IMG/VR virus record: IMGVR_UViG_3300018481_000020
Location: 17,458-81,457 of that record
Reading direction: 5' to 3' (one strand)
DNA from: a virus
DNA: 64,000 bases
Positions 51,162 through 62,460 of the stretch are shown here, piece after piece (the stretch's first letter is position 1; the number at the start of each line of letters is the position of its first letter). The notes under the pieces were generated by a model, which did not search any database, was not told the DNA's origin, and saw nothing but the letters and a program-made list of their open reading frames with translations. A program made the position numbers and the translations under genes.

Positions 51162-53410
51162 AGTCCCTGACCGCCTATCCATCCGAGCAGCAGCCGCTGG
51201 GCTACTTCCGGATCTTCGTCCGGCCTCCCGGCGGCTATCGGCGCGAGATCACCGTGTTCCGTGGTGCTCCGGTCCGGGTGGATGGAGTGACCACCCAGGA
51301 CCCGTTCACCGACGTGACCGCCAGCCTGGCGCTGCCTCAAGTCACCGTCTTCGACACTCCCGGTGAGGGAGACCTGGGCTGGCTGGTGCCGGACACCGAT
51401 GTCGACATCGTGTTCCAGAACGTGGGGGACTATGAGTTCGACTGGCGCTGGGAGGGCTACATCGCCTCCTACAACTTCAGCCTGTCCGGTGCTGACTCTG
51501 CCTACAACATTGACCTGAAGGGAGCCTTCTTCGGGTTGGACGACTACCTGGCCATCCCGCAGTTCCCGAAGCGACCGATCCCGTACGAGATCCTGATGGC
51601 CCAGGCCTTCGACCAGACTGAGCACCCGGCGCACCTGGGCAAGTTCCGGATCCTGTTCCCGGCCGACTGGTCGCTACGAGTGCCACCGTTCAAGGATCCG
51701 ACCTATTTGAGCATGCTGAAGCCCTGGGGGATCGCCACCGATCACCTCTGGACCGGGTTCACTGCCCGCAACACCGGGTCCTGGGAGCCGCTGCTCTCCG
51801 GTTTCGTACAGAGTCTGCTGACCGTGATGTTCGCCGAAGGTGGTTCCCAGTGGAGCATCCGGAACCGGGGCAACCGCCGGCCCGAGCTGTACCTGCGTCG
51901 GATCCCGGAGGCCGACAGCGACAGGATCGTCGAGATCCATCTCGGAGCTCCTGGGGTGATCATTGACGGCAGTCGAGACTTTACCCAGCGTGCCGGGGTG
52001 ATCTTCGGGTCCGGAGCAGACGAGGCCGGCATCACCTACTCCAACATCGAGGTCTCCCCAGACGGTCGACGGACCTACTACAAGCCGTACGCCTACTCCC
52101 CACGGATGTGGCCACGGAAGTCCAACCCGAACTTCGACAAGCGGTTGAAGCCCAAGGAGACGATGGTCCGGTTCCAGGACGGTGTCGATGAGGTCTCCGC
52201 GATGAAGATCGCCCAGGGCCAGTACCAGCGGTTCGCGGAGCCGGGGATCACCGGATCGATCACGCTGACCACCGATCCTCGGCTGAGCTCGGGGGAGCTG
52301 ATGCCCCGGCTGCTGATCAAGGGTGGGATGACGATCCGGATCAACGGCCTGTTCGGAGTCCGGGAGGGAGTGCTGGCACATGTCACCCAGGCTGTTGCGG
52401 ACTTCAACGGGCTGACCATGTCGCTGACCTTCGACACCAAGTACCGCGACCAGCTGACCGTGGAGGAGGTCCGGGCCCGCACCCGGGACGCGCTCACCCC
52501 GATGCGGGCGCTGCAGATCGGCAAGTACTCAAACACCATCCAGGATCTGATCCTGCCGTGGTCCTACAAGGCAGGCTCCGGGGTGGTGCCGACGCCGGCG
52601 AAGGCGTTCTTCGCCGAGAAGCTGCCGGCCGATGCCACCTTCCCGTACGAGACGTGGACCCGGCTGTACCCACCGAAGAACCCCTCCTACAAGTCCTGGT
52701 ACATCGAGATCGGTAAGACCCATACCAGCAACTCCAACAACAACTGGAGCTCGATGAAGCGCGGCGGGATCGCCACCGCCTCGATCCCGATCCGGATGGG
52801 TCAGGCTGGCACGATCCGGCTCACCCAGATAGCTGCTTACGACAAGGACGGCAACGTGCTGCCGGTGAAGTTCCATGTCAGCCTGTACTACGTGAACTCG
52901 GTAGCAGTGGACTCGATGCCGCAGTTCCCGGGTGCGCGCGGCAGTGAGGACTTCCCGGACTACCTCGCGGCCCGCAAGATCGCTGTCAAGGGTGCAACCA
53001 TCATCCCGACCACCTTCCAGACGGCGCTGGGGCAGAAGGCCCAGACACACCCGTTCTACAAGGGTGCCTTCGAGACCGTGCAGCCCGACGGCACTCACTT
53101 CCCCTGGGGCGCGGATGTCCAGCTGGCCGATGAGTCCCAGGTCGTTGGCTGGGGCAACTACTACGAGCCGGCCGGCTACTCCCCGGGCCGATTCTCCAAG
53201 GGTGCCGCGCGCACCGGGCTGCTGGAGGACGCCACTCCCTGGGGTTGGGACCTGACCGGGCCCGGGAACCTGAACCTGGACAAGCCGGCCGACAACGCCA
53301 AGGAGGAGTACGCCGGATGCTTGTTCATCATGATCTACTGCCAAGACCAGTTCGATGAGTCGGTGTTCTTTATGGGTCGCTTCATTCGACAAGAACCAGG
53401 ACAGAGCTGA
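51158..53410 (+). CDS. minor tail / baseplate hub protein
   Basis: 750 aa ORF in the tail-tip module. Confidence 0.7.
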   Translation: MKSLTAYPSEQQPLGYFRIFVRPPGGYRREITVFRGAPVRVDGVTTQDPFTDVTASLALPQVTVFDTPGEGDLGWLVPDTDVDIVFQNVGDYEFDWRWEGYIASYNFSLSGADSAYNIDLKGAFFGLDDYLAIPQFPKRPIPYEILMAQAFDQTEHPAHLGKFRILFPADWSLRVPPFKDPTYLSMLKPWGIATDHLWTGFTARNTGSWEPLLSGFVQSLLTVMFAEGGSQWSIRNRGNRRPELYLRRIPEADSDRIVEIHLGAPGVIIDGSRDFTQRAGVIFGSGADEAGITYSNIEVSPDGRRTYYKPYAYSPRMWPRKSNPNFDKRLKPKETMVRFQDGVDEVSAMKIAQGQYQRFAEPGITGSITLTTDPRLSSGELMPRLLIKGGMTIRINGLFGVREGVLAHVTQAVADFNGLTMSLTFDTKYRDQLTVEEVRARTRDALTPMRALQIGKYSNTIQDLILPWSYKAGSGVVPTPAKAFFAEKLPADATFPYETWTRLYPPKNPSYKSWYIEIGKTHTSNSNNNWSSMKRGGIATASIPIRMGQAGTIRLTQIAAYDKDGNVLPVKFHVSLYYVNSVAVDSMPQFPGARGSEDFPDYLAARKIAVKGATIIPTTFQTALGQKAQTHPFYKGAFETVQPDGTHFPWGADVQLADESQVVGWGNYYEPAGYSPGRFSKGAARTGLLEDATPWGWDLTGPGNLNLDKPADNAKEEYAGCLFIMIYCQDQFDESVFFMGRFIRQEPGQS

Positions 53411-53772
53411 TGGACAACAGCATCACTGACGAGCAGGCGCACAACTGGCTCCAGGAGATAGCGGAGAGTGGCTGGGTCAGTCTGCACTTCGACAACCCCG
53501 CGCTCGGTGGTGAGGATCGTGCAGAGATCTCCGGTGGTGCCTACGCCCGGTACAAGATGGTCTGGACCCGGCCCAACAACCGAGCGATCTGGTCCTTGGC
53601 CGACGCCAGGTACACCGGACTGCAGCAGACCAAGATCACCTACTTCGGAGTCTGGAACGCCGGGGTCAAGGGGTTCCTACGTGCCTACGGAGAACTGCCC
53701 AACCCCGCCATGATCCTGAACGGCAAGGGCTACGTCCTGCACGCTGGATTGATCGCGATCAGCTTCGGCTGA
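53410..53772 (+). CDS. minor tail protein
   Basis: VSLH..NP.....EISGG.YAR...ITYFGVW.A..G; paralog of 20814 and 49743. Confidence 0.7.
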   Translation: MDNSITDEQAHNWLQEIAESGWVSLHFDNPALGGEDRAEISGGAYARYKMVWTRPNNRAIWSLADARYTGLQQTKITYFGVWNAGVKGFLRAYGELPNPAMILNGKGYVLHAGLIAISFG

Positions 53773-53787
53773 CCTGTTTTTGGGCAT

Positions 53788-53848
53788 AAAAAAAGGACCT
53801 AGAGTCCCCGACTCCCCTCCGAAGAGGAGAGCCGGGGGCTCTAGGTCT
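53788..53848 (-). terminator. long intrinsic terminator (cUUCGg loop)
   Basis: ~24-bp stem with G-U pairs on the minus strand, followed by T7. Confidence 0.8.
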
Positions 53849-53990
53849 GGGGCGATCACCCCGGGTAGTCCGCTGCCTGGTCTGGCTAGACGAACGGGTC
53901 CTGCGTGATCCAGAGGACCATACTTACTGTTGAACCAGTGTGGACCCTTCTAAATCGGGGTGACCTAGTGTGATACGCACCTATCACACT
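53788..53990 (-). ncRNA. candidate structured ncRNA (~200 nt)
   Basis: Bounded by TGnTATAAT and a terminator; nested helices; only an 11-codon ORF inside. Confidence 0.55.
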
Positions 53991-53996
53991 ACATTC

Positions 53997-54025
53997 ATTA
54001 TAGCACATACACTTCAGTATGGCTA
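53997..54025 (-). promoter_or_regulatory. sigma70-type promoter
   Basis: TAGCCA-N17-TATAAT with extended -10 (TGC TATAAT; ATTATA at 53997-54002 on +). Confidence 0.7.
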
Positions 54026-54745
54026 TCTCTTGTGCCGGAAAGGTGCTGTGGTAGTGAACTTGATGTGGTTCCACAGCACGATGGGTTGACCCTCGTAGAG
54101 CCTGACCATCGCCTTCTCCAAGCGATCAGACTGATCCCGGTTCTCCGTGTGCGCTGTCCTGACCCAAAGCGCTCGTCGGTCCATAGCTTTTTCCCGGTGC
54201 TCCTGCTGCTGCTTGATCGAGGCATTGTCATATGCCTCACGCTCAGCGTGAGTGCCATAGTCGCGCAGGTAGTCCTCCATCACCTTGAGTGCTGGCGTGC
54301 TACGTCCTACGCCTCTGGCGTGCTGCTTCAGACGGGTACTGAGGATGTTCGACCGGCCGACGTACCGAGGAAGCGCCTCGATGAAACGAGGTTCGTACCC
54401 GTTCGGTGTGAGCTCGAAGATGACATAGACCCCGTACTGTTGCCGGTCTCGTCGGTACTCCTCACTCATGTAATCCTTGTACTGAGAGAGCAGACAGGCC
54501 GGATGCCACTCAGCCATGGCCAGCAGCACTTCGTCACCCTCAGCCCGTCGTGGTGGAGCATCCCAACCCCTGAAACCATGAGCCTTCAACGGGCTTTCCC
54601 ATGGATTACCTAAATCTCGGCTGGCCCGAGGCTGGCTAGCGATCAGAGCATCGAACTCTGGATCAGCCACTGGGTTTGCCTGTGGAACTACCGAAGGTTC
54701 ATGAACCGGTACGTTCACGAACCGTTCTGCACTTGTTTCTGTCAT
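54023..54745 (-). CDS. GIY-YIG-like nuclease
   Basis: YGVYVI...YVGRS...RLKQH...LEKAM...LWN; AGAAAGGA RBS. Confidence 0.7.
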   Translation of the reverse strand: MTETSAERFVNVPVHEPSVVPQANPVADPEFDALIASQPRASRDLGNPWESPLKAHGFRGWDAPPRRAEGDEVLLAMAEWHPACLLSQYKDYMSEEYRRDRQQYGVYVIFELTPNGYEPRFIEALPRYVGRSNILSTRLKQHARGVGRSTPALKVMEDYLRDYGTHAEREAYDNASIKQQQEHREKAMDRRALWVRTAHTENRDQSDRLEKAMVRLYEGQPIVLWNHIKFTTTAPFRHKR

Positions 54746-54773
54746 GCTCCATTCCTTTCTGGTTGTAAGACAC

Positions 54774-54824
54774 AAAAAGGACCTGTGGGGCCGCCCCTCC
54801 GAAGAGAGACGGCCCCGTGGGTCC
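54774..54824 (-). terminator. intrinsic terminator (cUUCGg loop), related to 53788..53848
   Basis: Long stem plus T5; shares AAAAAGGACCT and CCCCTCCGAAGAG with the other hairpin. Confidence 0.75.
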
Positions 54825-54929
54825 CTATGCTTCCAGCGTCTGCTGAAGTGTCTTCAGCTCGATGACCAGATCGATGAACGTCTGGACCACCGCGATGGCC
54901 ATCCTGATGAATCCGAGTAACCAGCTCAT
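54825..54929 (-). CDS. small hydrophobic peptide (34 aa)
   Basis: Read manually: MSWLLGFIRMAIAVVQTFIDLVIELKTLQQTLEA; GAGGAGG RBS; ATGA overlap. Confidence 0.55.
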   Translation of the reverse strand: MSWLLGFIRMAIAVVQTFIDLVIELKTLQQTLEA

Positions 54930-55264
54930 CCCCATACCTCCTCTCGGAAGTAGGCGTGAGCAGTCTTGCGTGCCAGCACGGGATCACTCCCGAGCTTCCA
55001 CCCAGGCCAGCCGACACCTGGCTTGTCGTCCTTGCCGACCACGTACGCCGTCAGATCCGGCTCACCTTTGAAGGTGGTGTGCTCGGTCACCTTGCGGAGC
55101 ATCCCACCGACATGACGACGATGGCATCCCCGACCCTGCATCACGCGCAGGATCGTGGCGAGCTGACCATACGAGATCGGTCGAGTGGACTCAGCTGCCA
55201 GGCCGACCAGCAGTACGTACACCGATATCCACCGAGGCTCGACCTGGATGTCCTCCGCACTCAC
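54926..55264 (-). CDS. hypothetical protein (possible HTH/Atl-like fold)
   Basis: GTGA overlap start; ISYGQLA...VGGML...P.L...VV....PG.G. Confidence 0.6.
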   Translation of the reverse strand: MSAEDIQVEPRWISVYVLLVGLAAESTRPISYGQLATILRVMQGRGCHRRHVGGMLRKVTEHTTFKGEPDLTAYVVGKDDKPGVGWPGWKLGSDPVLARKTAHAYFREEVWG

Positions 55265-56160
55265 TGCACCTCGGGCATGAAGTCCGTGCCCGGCCGGAAA
55301 CGCAGCTGGAAGCGGTCGGTCTGGGTGACGTAGTCGTTCCAGGACTTGATCCCGTTGGCCAGGAAGATCGTCGGCCGCCAGGTGGGCGAGGTCTTGTAGT
55401 AGGCATCGGAGATCAGCCACTTGCGGAATGCCAGGATCGGGCTGCCGGACTCCAGGTTGACACCGTCAACCACCCTGTCCAGGAACTCCTCCTGAGCCGA
55501 GGGACCCTTCTCGCTGTGAATGGCGATCACAGCGAGCAGCACCGTCGATGAGGTCCGCATCCCGTAACGGCCGAACTCCTTGGCGATCATGTAGCCGGAA
55601 CGGATCGACTCCTGGACGACCTTGCCGATCTCGGGGTCATCCAGTGCTTCCAGGATGTCGACGGTGGTCATGGCCCATGCCGGTTGGCTGAGCCTGGTGC
55701 TGGTGTTGACGACCTCCGGATAGGCCAGTACCTGTCGAGTAGTCGCCGCCAGCACGTTCACGTCGGTGTAGCCGGCGATCTTGAGGCTGTCACCAGGTGA
55801 GCGAACCGCTCCGGTGTCGATGACCCCGAAGGTATCCGGGTCGGCGTCGAATGCCACCAACGACGGGATGTGCTTGCGCTGGCTGGCGATGGCGGTGAGC
55901 CGGTGCCGTCCATCGAGGACGTAGCCGGTGGGATCCAGTGCGATCGGCTGGTGGGTCATCTTCCACTCATCGTTCTCGATCGCGTGCAGGATCTTGCTGA
56001 TGTTGCGCTGCTTGAGCGTTCGCTGGTTGCGCTCAGGCGAGACCGTCAGCCACTCCCGAGCTTGCTGCGGACTGATCCTCATCGGAACGATCCGTGGCCC
56101 CTTGACCTTGGGCCTTCTGGTGGACTTCTTCCCATCGGTGTTGCTAGTGGGTTCTGACAT
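55261..56160 (-). CDS. ParB/Srx-like N-terminal domain protein
   Basis: ISP..A..WL....NQR...W......I..D..G.VLDGRHRL.AI. Confidence 0.8.
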   Translation of the reverse strand: MSEPTSNTDGKKSTRRPKVKGPRIVPMRISPQQAREWLTVSPERNQRTLKQRNISKILHAIENDEWKMTHQPIALDPTGYVLDGRHRLTAIASQRKHIPSLVAFDADPDTFGVIDTGAVRSPGDSLKIAGYTDVNVLAATTRQVLAYPEVVNTSTRLSQPAWAMTTVDILEALDDPEIGKVVQESIRSGYMIAKEFGRYGMRTSSTVLLAVIAIHSEKGPSAQEEFLDRVVDGVNLESGSPILAFRKWLISDAYYKTSPTWRPTIFLANGIKSWNDYVTQTDRFQLRFRPGTDFMPEVQ

Positions 56161-56167
56161 GTTGTTC

Positions 56168-56302
56168 TCATTCCTTCATGGTGTGGTTGTCGTACTCGTC
56201 CCATGCGTCATCGATCCATCGGTGGGTCGATGTTTTGAACCCGCACAGGCACTTGATCACCGCACCAGCCGAGGTTTCCTTGACCTCAACCGGGCGATGC
56301 AT
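56168..56302 (-). CDS. small Zn-finger-like peptide
   Basis: Read manually: MHRPVEV...CLCG...AWDEYDNH; start could be 56320. Confidence 0.45.
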   Translation of the reverse strand: MHRPVEVKETSAGAVIKCLCGFKTSTHRWIDDAWDEYDNHTMKE

Positions 56303-56570
56303 TGCTGTGGCTCTCGCCATATTTCTTGCCGATCACGAAGCCGAGACAGTAGATCTGCATCGCGGCTAACGGATCGTTCACACTGGCCTCGCCGTTCGCG
56401 TGCTGATACGCAGCAACCGCTTCGGCGGCATGCTTGGCCAGCTCTCCCAACTCCAGACCAGCCACCTCAAGAAACGGTGGGTTGTCTGACACCTGGCTCT
56501 CTAGGTCACCGACCACTGAGTCCAGGGTGCTCTTCAGTTCGTTCTCCTGGTTGGTACGCCATTGAGGCAT
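56286..56570 (-). CDS. hypothetical protein
   Basis: GAAGGA RBS before MPQWR. Confidence 0.6.
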   Translation of the reverse strand: MPQWRTNQENELKSTLDSVVGDLESQVSDNPPFLEVAGLELGELAKHAAEAVAAYQHANGEASVNDPLAAMQIYCLGFVIGKKYGESHSNASPG

Positions 56571-56590
56571 GACTATTCCTTCCTGGTAGG

Positions 56591-56632
56591 CACAGGGAGA
56601 GGAGCCCTGGGGGTGGGTCACCTCTCCCTGTG
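56591..56632 (-). terminator. intergenic hairpin
   Basis: CACAGGGAGAGG / CCTCTCCCTGTG perfect 12-bp inverted repeat; no T-run. Confidence 0.55.
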
Positions 56633-56637
56633 GGCTC

Positions 56638-57402
56638 TTAGAACTCGACGACCTCGTCGTCCCCGAACCGGTCCTTGATCATCTCCTCACGCTTGCTGCC
56701 GGCCTCGGCTCGGAGCACCACTGCGAGGACCAGGTCCTTCTCCTTCATCGTTCGCATGGTGGCCACGTCGCCGTGGAACAAGATGGCCTCTTCATCGAGC
56801 ATCTCCGTGAACAGCTTGAGCATGGGGTTCCCCTGCTCCAGATTCTCGGAGATCAGGTCAGTCGCCTTGGGTCGCTGCATCATGTCCTGGAGCCAGTCGA
56901 ACATGACACCGGTGCCAGTCGTGTCGTCCTCACCTTCCTCGCTTGAACCCATGGAGATCGGCTCACCCCAGGTGATCTGGTCCTCCTTGATCACGTAGGG
57001 AAGTGAGTACAAGGCCCAGCCACCATCGCGATCGTGGATGGTGGTGGTCAGGCACGGTGAGACCCAGCCCTTCTCGGCAGCGTCCGGATAGGTCTCCGAG
57101 ACGTACTGCATCTCCTTGGGCATCCAGTCCTTGCCAGTCACCGGCGACTCCTTCAGCTTCGAGGTGTAGGACTCGAAGGTGATGGACACGACATCGGCGC
57201 TGAAGCCCATCACCCCGATCGAGGCCGCCTGCAACGCAACGTCCCGATCTACCGGGCACTGCGCCATGATGGCCATGTCCTCGCCCCTCCAGAAATGCAG
57301 GTAGATCGCCAGGTCCGGGTTCTCAGGCAGCTCCGCCACCCAGTCATCCTTGGTCTGCTGCATCACGTCGTTGATCTGTGTGATCTGTTCCTTCAGGCTC
57401 AT
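56638..57402 (-). CDS. hypothetical acidic protein
   Basis: ATGA overlap; phage-like codon usage. Confidence 0.7.
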   Translation of the reverse strand: MSLKEQITQINDVMQQTKDDWVAELPENPDLAIYLHFWRGEDMAIMAQCPVDRDVALQAASIGVMGFSADVVSITFESYTSKLKESPVTGKDWMPKEMQYVSETYPDAAEKGWVSPCLTTTIHDRDGGWALYSLPYVIKEDQITWGEPISMGSSEEGEDDTTGTGVMFDWLQDMMQRPKATDLISENLEQGNPMLKLFTEMLDEEAILFHGDVATMRTMKEKDLVLAVVLRAEAGSKREEMIKDRFGDDEVVEF

Positions 57403-58061
57403 GACTCGTCTCCCTGCGTTGCGAGCTCGATTCCGTCCAGCACGTCCCGTTCCCGCCAGGTCGTGCCCAGGTGATGTCCAGCCAGGTAGGAAGCGCACGC
57501 GCAGGCTGTTCCGACGAGCAGCCACACGTCCCAGACCTTGCCGGGGTCGACATCTCGATGAGCGAACCCGGTGATGTGGGACAGGTGCGCTACGCCTCCC
57601 TCGATGTACTCGTTGAAGTACGCCAGCACACTTGAGTCCTCAGCGAAGCCCTTCGCCATCGTGCGCGAGGCTTCCCGGAACGGCTCCTCGGTGAAGATCA
57701 GCTCCAGCTTGTTGAAGTGGTCGAAGATCCTGACCGCCTGATGCTGCTGGTGCCCGACCATCACGCCGTCGGTGAAGGTCTCCAACACCAACGCCAGCAG
57801 GTACTCCGCCATCACCTGCGAGGTCAGCTCCATCAGCTGATCAGCATTGGTGGGCATCGTCGACCCAGCGAAGTGCCGATAGCCACGTCGAGTGATCGCC
57901 ATCAGCCGGTCCCCGTAGTAGTCCCGCATCGCGTTGAATCCTGGAGGGAAACCCTGCTCTCGGGGGTCTCCGGGACCGAGCACCGTGACCGGTCCACGAT
58001 CGCCGTGGTCGTCTCTGGTCCTCTCGAACGAAGCCCTGACTTCCTCGATCAGATCAGCCAT
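57399..58061 (-). CDS. hypothetical protein
   Basis: Coupled to neighbours. Confidence 0.7.
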   Translation of the reverse strand: MADLIEEVRASFERTRDDHGDRGPVTVLGPGDPREQGFPPGFNAMRDYYGDRLMAITRRGYRHFAGSTMPTNADQLMELTSQVMAEYLLALVLETFTDGVMVGHQQHQAVRIFDHFNKLELIFTEEPFREASRTMAKGFAEDSSVLAYFNEYIEGGVAHLSHITGFAHRDVDPGKVWDVWLLVGTACACASYLAGHHLGTTWRERDVLDGIELATQGDES

Positions 58062-60244: not shown

Positions 60245-60622
60245 CTAGTTGTCGTCCTCTGCTGCTATCTCCTCCTTCCCGAGTAGACGTTCAGCGGTGG
60301 CCATTGCACCGGGCAGTGGCGCTAACCAGTGCCCCTTCGCGTCGAAGTGCACAACGGTCAAGAATGTCTCCGAGCCTTCGCGGTTCTCCACGAGCGCGGT
60401 CCTAATCATCTGGTCCTCACTGAGGTTCAGATAGGCGATCGCCTTGAGCTTTGGCGACTGGACCTGGGCCTTGCGGACGGCAACGTACTGGCTGTAGTCG
60501 GTACCGCCAACACGAGCCAGTACGTTGCCTCCACGACCCAGGAACACCACGCCCTTCGTGCCTTGCGCCACAAGCCCGGCAATGCTCCTGCCGAGCTTGG
60601 TGTCTCTGGGTGCAAAACTCAT
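60245..60622 (-). CDS. hypothetical protein
   Basis: GGAGG RBS; ATGA overlap. Confidence 0.6.
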   Translation of the reverse strand: MSFAPRDTKLGRSIAGLVAQGTKGVVFLGRGGNVLARVGGTDYSQYVAVRKAQVQSPKLKAIAYLNLSEDQMIRTALVENREGSETFLTVVHFDAKGHWLAPLPGAMATAERLLGKEEIAAEDDN

Positions 60623-62317: not shown

Positions 62318-62364
62318 CTCATTTCATGGTTGTAGGACGCCCTTATGAGCGACCCTGGACATGC

Positions 62365-62396
62365 AAAAAGCCCCAGGACATCTGGTCCTGAGGCTT
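62365..62396 (-). terminator. terminator in the leader of the early operon
   Basis: AAGCCTCAGGAC-CAGAT-GTCCTGGGGCTT-TTT. Confidence 0.7.
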
Positions 62397-62434
62397 CCCG
62401 TGTGCGCGGGCATGCTGACGCCTTTGCACACTAC

Positions 62435-62460
62435 TATTGTATCAGATACTAGACACAATA
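62435..62460 (-). promoter_or_regulatory. extended -10 promoter with overlapping palindromes
   Basis: TGA-TACAAT on the minus strand; GTATCAGATAC and TATTGT...ACAATA inverted repeats. Confidence 0.6.

What the first reader, a model, noticed from the sequence alone, without database searches (positions are those of the whole stretch)
53788..54025. Self-contained ~200-nt structured RNA gene at the strand convergence point
Seen on the minus strand: a near-consensus promoter (TAGCCA-N17-TATAAT, extended TG), then a 5' hairpin AGUGUGAUA/UAUCACACU and a 10-bp closing helix GGUCACCCCG/CGGGGUGAUC. This helix encloses GGGUCC/GGACCC with two inner hairpins (ACUG-GUUCAA-CAGU; UGGUCC-UCU-GGAUCA) and a small GCC/GGC stem. 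A ~24-bp UUCG terminator with U7 follows. G-U pairs work only on the minus strand, and the only ORF is 11 codons (MVLWITQDPFV). I cannot match it to tRNA, tmRNA, ribozyme or riboswitch consensus. Inference: a novel phage sRNA (decoy, anti-defence or scaffold), or a partner of the GIY-YIG-like nuclease whose stop codon overlaps the -35.
Basis: partly seen in the sequence, partly recalled or inferred. Interest (0 to 1): 0.75.

Follow-up and report, generated by a model that had tools for sequence, protein, structure and literature searches.

The report
Orphan phage small RNA in nuclease cassette
A phage genome carries a well-folded, roughly 200-base candidate small RNA gene with its own promoter, which sits with a nuclease gene inside a foreign insert and has no known relatives, so its function cannot yet be tested by comparison.

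Summary
This covers the extended -10 promoter, the 5' hairpin, the 10-bp closing helix around a three-way junction, and the 24-bp UUCG terminator with U7. The predicted fold is far more stable than shuffled sequence (z -7.8 for the whole RNA, -5.6 for the body alone) and favours the minus strand. Rfam and ARAGORN find nothing.

The gene is not fully self-contained. Its terminator is the conserved convergent terminator of this ~80-kb phage family. The promoter, the RNA body and the GIY-YIG gene together form a 926-bp low-GC insert (53848-54773). The insert is flanked by two copies of that terminator and has no DNA counterpart in 35 related loci.

The RNA body has no homologue in any set searched: 0 of 35 loci, 0 of 10 relative genomes, 0 of 183 pattern hits, and 0 of 302 bacterial genomes. 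Covariation therefore cannot be tested, and no sequencing run was listed.

Best reading, about 50% confidence: a real, early-expressed, probably protein-binding orphan sRNA carried by a mobile nuclease cassette. The scan also noted this same stretch once more, on this same genome (e1-6137825).

The parts
53997..54025 (-). Sigma-70-type promoter: -35 TAGCCA, 17-nt spacer, extended -10 TGcTATAAT. The -35 overlaps the stop codon of the GIY-YIG ORF.
   Evidence: 10 of 12 consensus positions, TG present. (only TGNTATAAT in the window, 0.08 expected). (TATAAT occurs twice in the 81-kb genome, both strands counted).
53966..53991 (-). 5'-terminal hairpin: 10 perfect Watson-Crick pairs and a 6-nt loop. 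The predicted transcription start is at about 53990, inferred from the -10 spacing. As DNA it is a 10-bp inverted repeat with a 6-bp spacer.
   Evidence: The plus strand forms the same hairpin.
53854..53965 (-). RNA body. A 10-bp closing helix encloses an 8-nt single strand (AUUUAGAA). Inside are a compound arm (GGGUCC/GGACCC with two hairpins) and a second arm (GUUCG..CGGAC with a GCC/GGC tip).
   Evidence: z -5.62, MFE share of the ensemble 0.37; 4 G-U pairs in the body.
53788..53853 (-). 6-nt linker (53848-53853), then terminator T2: 24-nt arms, UUCG loop, -46.9 kcal/mol, and C+U7 at 53795-53788. T2 is the family-conserved terminator of the leftward operon.
   Evidence: DNA homology with relatives runs up to 53847 in L007, 53842 in L031 and 53837 in L010.
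53848..54773 (.). 926-bp insert holding the RNA body, the promoter and the GIY-YIG ORF. It has no DNA homology in any of the 35 related loci. GC is 55.8% against 62.0% for the genome.
   Evidence: boundaries. (only 18 of 1611 windows of 926 bp are as GC-poor)..
54023..54775 (-). GIY-YIG-fold ORF: 250 aa from the TTG start, or 240 aa from the ATG at 54745. GC3 is 0.62. Residues 1-71 are predicted with low confidence.
   Evidence: (conserved GVY, YVG, R, E columns). (core pLDDT above 90). (GIY-YIG nucleases are the top structural hits). (a source names one cluster 'predicted GIY-YIG superfamily endonuclease').
54774..54826 (-). Terminator T1 (-40.7 kcal/mol, U5 tail). It is a second copy of the family terminator, lying upstream of the insert.
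   Evidence: (13-nt exact repeat shared with T2). T1 aligns at 84-85% identity to the single terminators of L003 and L007.
53410..53772 (+). Last gene of the rightward structural operon (120 aa, Gp80-like fibre protein). It converges on T2.
   Evidence: PF23140, E 5.5e-09. (tblastn match in 29 of 35 related loci).

Best explanation
This is most likely a real, independently transcribed, non-coding structured RNA of about 203 nt (about 53990 to 53788, minus strand).

The RNA body, its promoter and a GIY-YIG nuclease gene form a 926-bp insert of foreign composition. The insert sits in the conserved terminator that separates the rightward structural operon from the leftward operon, and that terminator is now present on both sides of it. 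The RNA borrows the downstream copy (T2) as its own terminator.

Inferred steps:
1. Host RNA polymerase starts at the extended -10 promoter. This is one of only three consensus -10 sites in the genome; the other two precede leftward genes, each followed by a short terminated leader. The RNA would therefore be made early in infection.
2. The 5' hairpin and the 3' terminator would protect the RNA's ends.
3. About two thirds of the nucleotides are stably paired, the longest single strand is 8 nt, and nothing in the phage is complementary beyond chance. The RNA therefore more likely acts by binding a protein (as a decoy, sponge or cofactor) than by antisense pairing.

What is shown: the sequence anatomy, the thermodynamic excess, the strand asymmetry, the insert boundaries and the lack of relatives. 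What is inferred: transcription, timing and mode of action.
For: - Promoter: the only site in 53000-55000, 10 of 12 consensus positions plus TG. TGNTATAAT occurs once in 64 kb against 0.08 expected.
- In the whole 81,457-bp genome, TATAAT occurs twice and TACAAT once. All three are on the minus strand: one is this RNA's promoter, and each of the other two is followed by hairpins, a terminator and then a leftward gene.
- Fold: z -7.78 for the whole RNA and -5.62 for the body, with 0 of 200 shuffles as stable in each case. The body's MFE is 37% of the ensemble.
- Strand asymmetry: the plus strand is 10 kcal/mol weaker, with an ill-defined ensemble (share 0.0055). There are 6 G-U pairs among 70.
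- The body ranks 16th of 7072 genome windows.
- 137 of 203 nt are paired with probability above 0.8.
- No complementarity or sequence copy longer than 13 nt exists elsewhere in the genome, and that 13-mer is the terminator repeat.
- Insert: relatives' DNA homology stops at 53837-53847, resumes only for T1 (54774-54824) and then from about 55260. GC is 55.8%, among the lowest 18 of 1611 windows.
- The 250-aa ORF has a GIY-YIG fold. Its homologues are scattered: 23 cluster representatives in 1.84 billion proteins, some on ~80-kb contigs, and 0 of 5 complete relatives.
Against: - No homologue of the RNA body was found, so there is no covariation support at all. The counts: 0 of 35 related loci, 0 of 10 relatives' whole records, 0 of 176 + 7 pattern-matched loci, and 0 of 302 sampled bacterial genomes.
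- There is no expression evidence of any kind.
- The -35 hexamer is weak (4 of 6).
- The 5' hairpin has no G-U pair, so it is equally a DNA palindrome.
- An orphan insert may be evolutionarily young or decaying.
- High-GC genomes fold well in general. 15 other windows out-rank the body in the genome scan; the 25 top-ranked windows printed are mostly terminator-containing or coding.
Confidence: 0.5

Rival explanations
1. The structured stretch is a cis-acting 3' UTR of the nuclease mRNA. It would stabilise the message and insulate it before the shared terminator. The promoter-like site would then be incidental or only weakly used.
For: - The body lies directly after the ORF's stop codon and shares terminator T2.
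- No promoter-like site was found between T1 and the ORF start, so the ORF must be transcribed from upstream through T1, and that transcript would carry the body.
- sRNAs and 3' UTRs often coincide. MicX and DapZ have ORF-internal promoters (PMC9438474, passages seen).
Against: - An extended -10 consensus is expected 0.08 times in 64 kb. Here it is placed so that the transcript begins exactly at a 10-bp hairpin.
- A 138-nt, three-way-junction domain is more than 3'-end protection needs, since T2 alone is -46.9 kcal/mol.
Confidence: 0.17
2. The RNA is a functional partner of the GIY-YIG protein. It could be an inhibitor (antitoxin-like) that keeps the nuclease off the phage's own DNA, or a cofactor that helps the nuclease find the empty insertion site in related phages.
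For: - The two lie in one 926-bp insert, with the RNA promoter overlapping the ORF's stop codon.
- The RNA's 3' part is the flanking, family-conserved sequence. This resembles the layout in which the TnpB RNA is made of the element's 3' region plus flanking DNA (PMC13565253, passages seen).
- The protein has no recognisable DNA-binding domain, and its first ~71 residues are predicted with low confidence.
Against: - The GIY-YIG structures matched (UvrC-N, EndoII, I-TevI, R.Eco29kI) are, as far as I recall, all protein-guided enzymes.
- The would-be guide is locked in a -46.9 kcal/mol hairpin.
- There are no tandem repeats as in type III antitoxin RNAs.
- Co-occurrence with the nuclease's homologues could not be examined.
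Confidence: 0.12
3. The signals act at the DNA level and there is no functional RNA. The perfect 10-bp inverted repeat would be an operator or a nuclease or recombination site. The remaining hairpins would be leftovers of the donor genome.
For: - The 5' hairpin is a perfect palindrome with no G-U pair and folds equally on both strands.
- The segment is a recent insert without relatives.
Against: - The four G-U pairs in the body and the 10 kcal/mol strand difference argue for selection on the minus-strand RNA.
- The palindrome occurs only once in the genome.
Confidence: 0.1
4. The RNA is an antisense regulator of the convergent late transcript. It would work in the manner recalled for lambda OOP, pairing with read-through late mRNA that crosses T2.
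For: - The gene converges on the last structural gene, whose stop codon is 16 nt from the RNA's end.
- In the plus direction T2 has no U-tract after it. Only a weak 5-bp hairpin with T5 precedes it.
Against: - The RNA does not overlap any plus-strand coding sequence.
- Relatives manage the same junction without it: 0 of 35 loci have it.
- A compact fold is poorly suited to pairing.
Confidence: 0.06

Closest known systems
[quoted passage not shown]
   Same: The promoter lies at the very end of the upstream coding sequence, and the RNA corresponds to the 3' UTR and ends at the mRNA's terminator (PMC9438474, passages seen).
   Different: Those are chromosomal sRNAs that act by base pairing, many of them Hfq-bound. 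This RNA is phage-borne, almost fully folded, shows no target complementarity within the phage, and has no homologues.
TnpB/IscB element-encoded guide RNAs (omega RNA, reRNA)
   Same: A nuclease gene is followed by a structured RNA that starts in or at the gene's 3' end and runs across the element's boundary into flanking DNA (PMC13565253, passages seen).
   Different: The nuclease here has a GIY-YIG fold, not RuvC. No HEARO or omega RNA family matched in Rfam. The flanking part is a self-paired terminator. No transposase was seen.
phi29 packaging RNA (pRNA); its features are recalled, not tested by any search
   Same: A phage-encoded RNA of similar size, with a helix closing a multi-helix junction and its own promoter.
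   Different: The RNA is missing from all 10 relatives' records searched, so it cannot be an essential packaging part. This is a Mu-like-portal, ~81-kb phage. No Rfam match.
Bacterial Y RNA (YrlA) with Ro/Rsr
   Same: A closing stem formed by distant segments, plus a branched domain containing a GUUCAA loop.
   Different: No TROVE-domain protein is encoded in the genome, although the control genomes did give hits. No Rfam match even at E up to 10. ARAGORN sees no tRNA-like gene.
Free-standing GIY-YIG homing endonuclease cassettes of phages (T4 seg type; their behaviour is recalled)
   Same: A GIY-YIG gene sits in an intergenic insert that is absent from close relatives, has deviant composition and is scattered across the phage family.
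   Different: As far as I recall, such cassettes are not described with a promoter-driven structured RNA gene. One literature search (14 papers held all four terms, 12 were listed, and I saw only the listing) showed none, which is weak evidence of absence.

Membership tests
tRNA / tmRNA | Cloverleaf or tRNA-like domain recognised by ARAGORN | tested here: not met
   0 genes in the whole window.
Any Rfam 15 family (riboswitches, ribozymes, group I/II introns, HEARO, Y RNA, 6S, raiA and others) | Covariance-model score at or above the family's gathering threshold | tested here: not met
   0 matches in the window at gathering threshold. At E up to 10 on 53750-54050 there were 8 matches. All lie on the terminator hairpin (53781-53857), score 12-17.8 bits, and have thresholds of 40-100.
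Bacterial Y RNA / Ro system | A TROVE-domain (Ro/Rsr) protein encoded with the RNA | tested here: not met
   PF05731 gave 0 matches in the 81-kb genome; 2 of the 14 control genomes gave matches.
Retron msr-msd RNA | Adjacent reverse transcriptase | tested here: not met
   PF00078 gave 0 matches in the genome; 3 of 14 control genomes gave matches.
Type III toxin-antitoxin RNA (ToxI-like) | Tandem direct repeats of the antitoxin unit next to the nuclease gene | tested here: not met
   TRF found only a 12-nt, 1.9-copy array at 54855-54877, outside the RNA. No direct repeat lies within the RNA.
attP / tRNA-fragment integration site | Tyrosine integrase in the genome and a tRNA 3' fragment | tested here: not met
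   PF00589 gave 0 matches; 14 of 14 control genomes gave matches. No tRNA-like hit. Serine integrases were not searched.
sRNA from an ORF-internal promoter sharing the mRNA terminator (biogenesis class, not a homologous family) | Promoter inside or at the end of the upstream ORF | tested here: met
   The -35 overlaps the stop codon at 54025-54023.
sRNA from an ORF-internal promoter sharing the mRNA terminator (biogenesis class, not a homologous family) | A detectable primary transcript | not testable with these tools
   No sequencing run was listed.
Conserved structured ncRNA (any new family) | Homologues with compensatory base changes | tested here: inconclusive
   No homologue was found in any set searched, so covariation could not be measured.
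GIY-YIG nuclease superfamily (the neighbouring ORF) | GIY-YIG alpha/beta core with conserved Tyr, Tyr-x-Gly, Arg and Glu | tested here: met
   - Invariant Y117, Y138, G140, R148 and E220 in 17 sequences.
- VIA-align Z 8.2 (UvrC-N, rmsd 2.5, 87 aligned), 7.7 (T4 EndoII), 7.2 (I-TevI), 6.7 and 6.6, then a drop to 3.8.
- The Pfam, NCBIfam and PHROG sequence models gave no hit.

The most novel reading that the evidence does not exclude
The RNA could be a cofactor of the GIY-YIG nuclease that travels with it. It would consist of an element-encoded scaffold whose 3' part is the flanking, family-conserved terminator sequence. Such an RNA could direct or license cleavage of the empty site in related phages, or shield the carrier's own copy. 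That would be an RNA-assisted homing system built on a GIY-YIG fold, analogous in layout to TnpB with its omega RNA.
Probability: 0.04. Interest if true: 0.85.

Novelty: new member of a known kind. Interest (0 to 1): 0.35.

Why it matters
Phage-encoded structured RNAs are few, and several known ones have unusual roles. A promoter-driven, compactly folded RNA carried as cargo of a mobile nuclease cassette would add a case where an RNA gene spreads between phages together with a homing-type enzyme. If the RNA proved to work with the nuclease, that would be a new kind of RNA-protein pairing. As it stands it is a single, well-formed candidate. It has no relatives and no expression data, so its value is as a defined target for one Northern blot or RNA-seq experiment, not as a finding.

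Tried and rejected
**Known RNA classes.**
- Rfam at gathering threshold and at relaxed thresholds, and ARAGORN, gave nothing.

**Close DNA relatives.**
- blastn against 50,697 phage records: no match.
- An exact 20-specified-base pattern in IMG/VR: 0 hits.

**RNA homologues by covariance model R1** (built from the single sequence).
- 0 of 35 related loci. The best non-self hit was 10.2 bits, E 7.3.
- 0 of 10 relatives' whole records.
- 0 of 151 and 0 of 151 genomes sampled from the phyla of two arbitrary centre genomes. Stricter filters were applied and the host is unknown, so this is a weak test.

**Helix-agnostic DNA patterns built from loops and junctions.**
- The first pattern gave 11 viral, 114 metagenome and 51 genome stretches.
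- Only 1 of 176 had a fully paired hairpin, and that one was nearly all wobble pairs.
- 0 of 176 matched R1.
- A second pattern gave 7 viral stretches; 0 of 7 matched R1.

**blastn and nhmmer of the RNA against the 35 loci.**
- Only the terminator part (query positions about 180-246) is similar, in L031, L003, L010 and L007.

**Contexts of the nuclease's homologues.**
- A single-protein search and the alignments A5, A6 and A7 in viral contigs, A6 in metagenome contigs and A6 in genome contigs all confirmed no relative.
- tblastn against phages: none.
- 0 of 5 complete relatives.
- 1 weak, stop-containing hit in 401 genomes and 0 in another 401.
- PADLOC gave one marginal hit, E 0.001.

**Pairing with targets.**
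- Pairing of the RNA with the two early leaders is no better than with shuffled leaders: 32 and 47 of 200 shuffles were as good.
- No antisense target in the phage beyond chance k-mers.

**Shared start motif.**
- GTAGTGTG follows the -10 at two promoters of this phage.
- It is absent from 5 relatives.
- A looser window-wide pattern is not above chance: 17 of 100 shuffles matched.

**Other checks.**
- The look-up of sequencing runs listed no run, and no RNA holder was listed.
- The search of earlier findings by relatives and by the sequence of a homologue returned nothing.
- The strongly folding stretch at 60413-60619 is coding sequence, not another RNA.

**Papers.**
- Only search listings were seen.
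- Passages were read from PMC13565253 and PMC9438474.
- What I say about lambda OOP, phi29 pRNA, YrlA, ToxI and T4 seg genes is recalled, not checked.
- Supplementary files were not consulted.

Full report
**Setting.** The window is bases 17458-81457 of an 81,457-bp virus record of 62.0% GC, rated complete. It has no close isolate relative.
- The RNA region, the 750-aa tail protein and the terminase found at best 20-25% identical matches in 50,697 phage records.
- Recognisable genes include a Mu-like portal, a MuF-like protein and a terminase nuclease domain.
- The finding lies where the rightward structural operon, ending with a 120-aa Gp80-like fibre protein at 53410-53772, meets the end of a leftward operon.

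On the minus strand there is TAGCCA, 17 nt, then TGcTATAAT (54025-53997).
- It is the only promoter-like site in 53000-55000.
- It is the only TGNTATAAT in the 64-kb window, against 0.08 expected; 8 of 100 shuffles had at least one.
- Seven bases further on the sequence enters a perfect 10-bp hairpin. Next comes a 10-bp helix that closes a junction with an 8-nt single strand, a compound arm with two hairpins, and a second arm. After a 6-nt linker there is a 24-bp UUCG hairpin with U7.
- Stability: -111.5 kcal/mol, z -7.78, 0 of 200 shuffles as stable.
- Without the terminator the 138-nt body still gives -63.4, z -5.62, 0 of 200, and one structure holds 37% of the ensemble.
- The complementary strand gives -53.4, z -3.33 and an ensemble share of 0.0055. 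This fits the four G-U pairs in the body.
- Across the genome the body ranks 16th of 7072 windows of the same length. The 25 top-ranked windows printed are mostly terminator-containing or coding.
- Inside the predicted transcript the only AUG-started frame is 11 codons, with no Shine-Dalgarno-like purine run before it (read).

**It matches no known RNA.**
- ARAGORN finds no tRNA or tmRNA.
- Rfam 15 gives nothing at gathering thresholds for the whole window.
- With relaxed filters on 301 bases, Rfam gave eight sub-threshold hits, all on the terminator hairpin.
- The genome encodes no TROVE protein, reverse transcriptase or tyrosine integrase, with positive controls in each search.
- There are no tandem repeats in the RNA.
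- These results set aside the Y-RNA, retron, attP-fragment and ToxI-like readings.

**Relatives show what is old and what is new.**
- The 750-aa tail protein has 186 homologues, many on ~80-kb contigs.
- An alignment of 33 of them retrieved 35 IMG/VR loci.
- 29 of the 35 loci gave a tblastn match to the Gp80-like protein, in nearly all of them right after the tail gene.
- None of the 35 has the 250-aa ORF.
- None matches a covariance model of the RNA body. Self scores 172 bits; the best foreign hit is 10.2 bits, E 7.3.
- The whole records of ten relatives, six of them 99-100% complete, also lack it.
- Only the terminator is shared. It aligns across ten sequences and is the only part found by blastn or nhmmer.

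**Insert boundaries** (blastn of 53000-57600 against the loci).
- Homology runs from the tail genes up to 53837-53847, exactly the upstream foot of the terminator T2.
- It reappears only at 54774-54824. That is a second terminator, T1, which aligns at 84-85% identity to the single terminators of L003 and L007.
- It then resumes from about 55260, in the ParB-like gene.
- The 926 bp between (53848-54773) are therefore an insert flanked by two versions of the family terminator. The two share a 13-nt exact repeat.
- The insert's GC is 55.8%; only 18 of 1611 windows of that size are as low.
- The ORF's GC3 is 0.62, against 0.75-0.9 for most genes.
- This agrees with the other note on this stretch (e1-6137825), which described the gene and the RNA as bracketed by related terminators.

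**The neighbouring ORF.**
- Sequence libraries are silent.
- A full HMMER scan of 1.84 billion representatives found 23 relatives.
- They keep a Gly-Val-Tyr strand, a Tyr-Val-Gly strand, and an Arg and a Glu.
- One cluster is named by its source as a predicted GIY-YIG endonuclease. Others sit on contigs of 80,231, 80,979 and 82,678 bp, that is, in other members of this phage family.
- An AlphaFold model is confident for residues about 80-245.
- Its six best structural matches of 48,161 chains include the UvrC N-domain (Z 8.2), T4 EndoII (7.7), I-TevI (7.2), PD-T4-3 (6.7) and R.Eco29kI (6.6). The next match scores 3.8. Foldseek agrees weakly.
- The gene looks like a free-standing, horizontally moving GIY-YIG gene for three reasons. 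It is scattered within the family and absent from 5 of 5 complete IMG/VR relatives. It is nearly absent from 802 sampled bacterial genomes. It has deviant composition.
- No promoter-like site lies between T1 and its start. It probably depends on read-through of T1, which is weaker than T2 (-40.7 against -46.9 kcal/mol, U5 against U7).

**Promoter context.**
- Consensus -10 hexamers are very rare in this genome. TATAAT occurs twice and TACAAT once in 81 kb of both strands, all on the minus strand.
- The other two sites (genome 6897, which is outside the window, and window 62441) each start a roughly 85-nt leader. Each leader has a small hairpin holding a shared GGCGU(A/C)AGCAUGCC motif, then a strong terminator, then the first gene.
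- The RNA promoter thus belongs to a set of three host-type promoters. All three give short, terminated, structured transcripts. For the RNA nothing lies beyond the terminator.
- From this I infer early transcription by host polymerase. That is inference, not observation.

**Mode of action.**
- 137 of 203 nt are paired with probability above 0.8. The longest open stretch is 8 nt.
- There is no copy or complement longer than chance in the phage, and no better-than-shuffle pairing with the two leaders.
- This argues weakly for protein binding over antisense action.
- The layout, with a promoter at the end of the upstream ORF and a shared terminator, is that of MicX and DapZ (PMC9438474, passages).
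- A nuclease gene followed by an RNA that runs from the element into flanking DNA also recalls TnpB and its RNA (PMC13565253, passages). That is the basis of the bold reading, to which I give about 4%. Against it, the enzymes matched are, as far as I recall, protein-guided, and the flanking part of the RNA is locked in the terminator hairpin.

**What could not be done.**
- No homologue means no covariation test.
- No run was listed for expression.

**Verdict.** It remains an orphan candidate inside a mobile nuclease cassette, not a demonstrated new RNA class. Interest is moderate to low, at 0.35.

Noticed in passing
window 62335-62444 (minus strand), and genome 6790-6897 (minus strand, outside the window; window coordinate about -10560): The two other consensus -10 promoters of the genome are each followed by a small hairpin with a shared GGCGU(A/C)AGCAUGCC motif, then a strong intrinsic terminator ending in UUUUUGCAUG, then the first gene. 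This looks like a leader or attenuator design that would need antitermination, or alternatively two ~85-nt sRNAs.
   Followed up: partly
L016:6255-6421 (minus strand): The closest IMG/VR relative has, at the same site just upstream of the shared terminator, an AT-rich stretch followed by a different ~110-nt hairpin-rich segment (z -3.62). The promoter scan found no site there, so this is only a weak hint that the position collects small transcription units.
   Followed up: partly
L011:6119-6250, L021:6114-6330, L022:6092-6130, L024:6128-6170: Short repeated GTGAC-N-GAGTGA-like motifs sit beside the convergent terminator in four relatives. They may be protein-binding sites. They are absent at this place in the window.
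   Followed up: no
L024:6128-6260: One relative carries two nearly identical terminator hairpins in tandem. Terminator duplication at this junction is therefore not unique to the window.
   Followed up: no
L002, L005 and L015, about 100 nt upstream (minus-strand view) of their terminators: These three loci share a conserved ~90-nt segment next to the terminator. It may be a small plus-strand ORF or another non-coding element.
   Followed up: no
window 54825-54929 (minus strand): A 34-codon hydrophobic ORF ends right at terminator T1. L006 has similar small hydrophobic ORFs before its terminator.
   Followed up: no
window 60413-60619 (minus strand): This is the most strongly folding 138-nt windows of the genome (residual z down to -4.76), but they lie inside coding sequence and have no Rfam match.
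   Followed up: partly
window 54745 versus 54775: The start of the GIY-YIG ORF is uncertain. It could be TTG at 54775 (250 aa) or ATG at 54745 (240 aa, preceded by a purine-rich stretch). The protein collection holds a 168-aa call. Only residues about 80-247 are conserved among homologues.
   Followed up: partly
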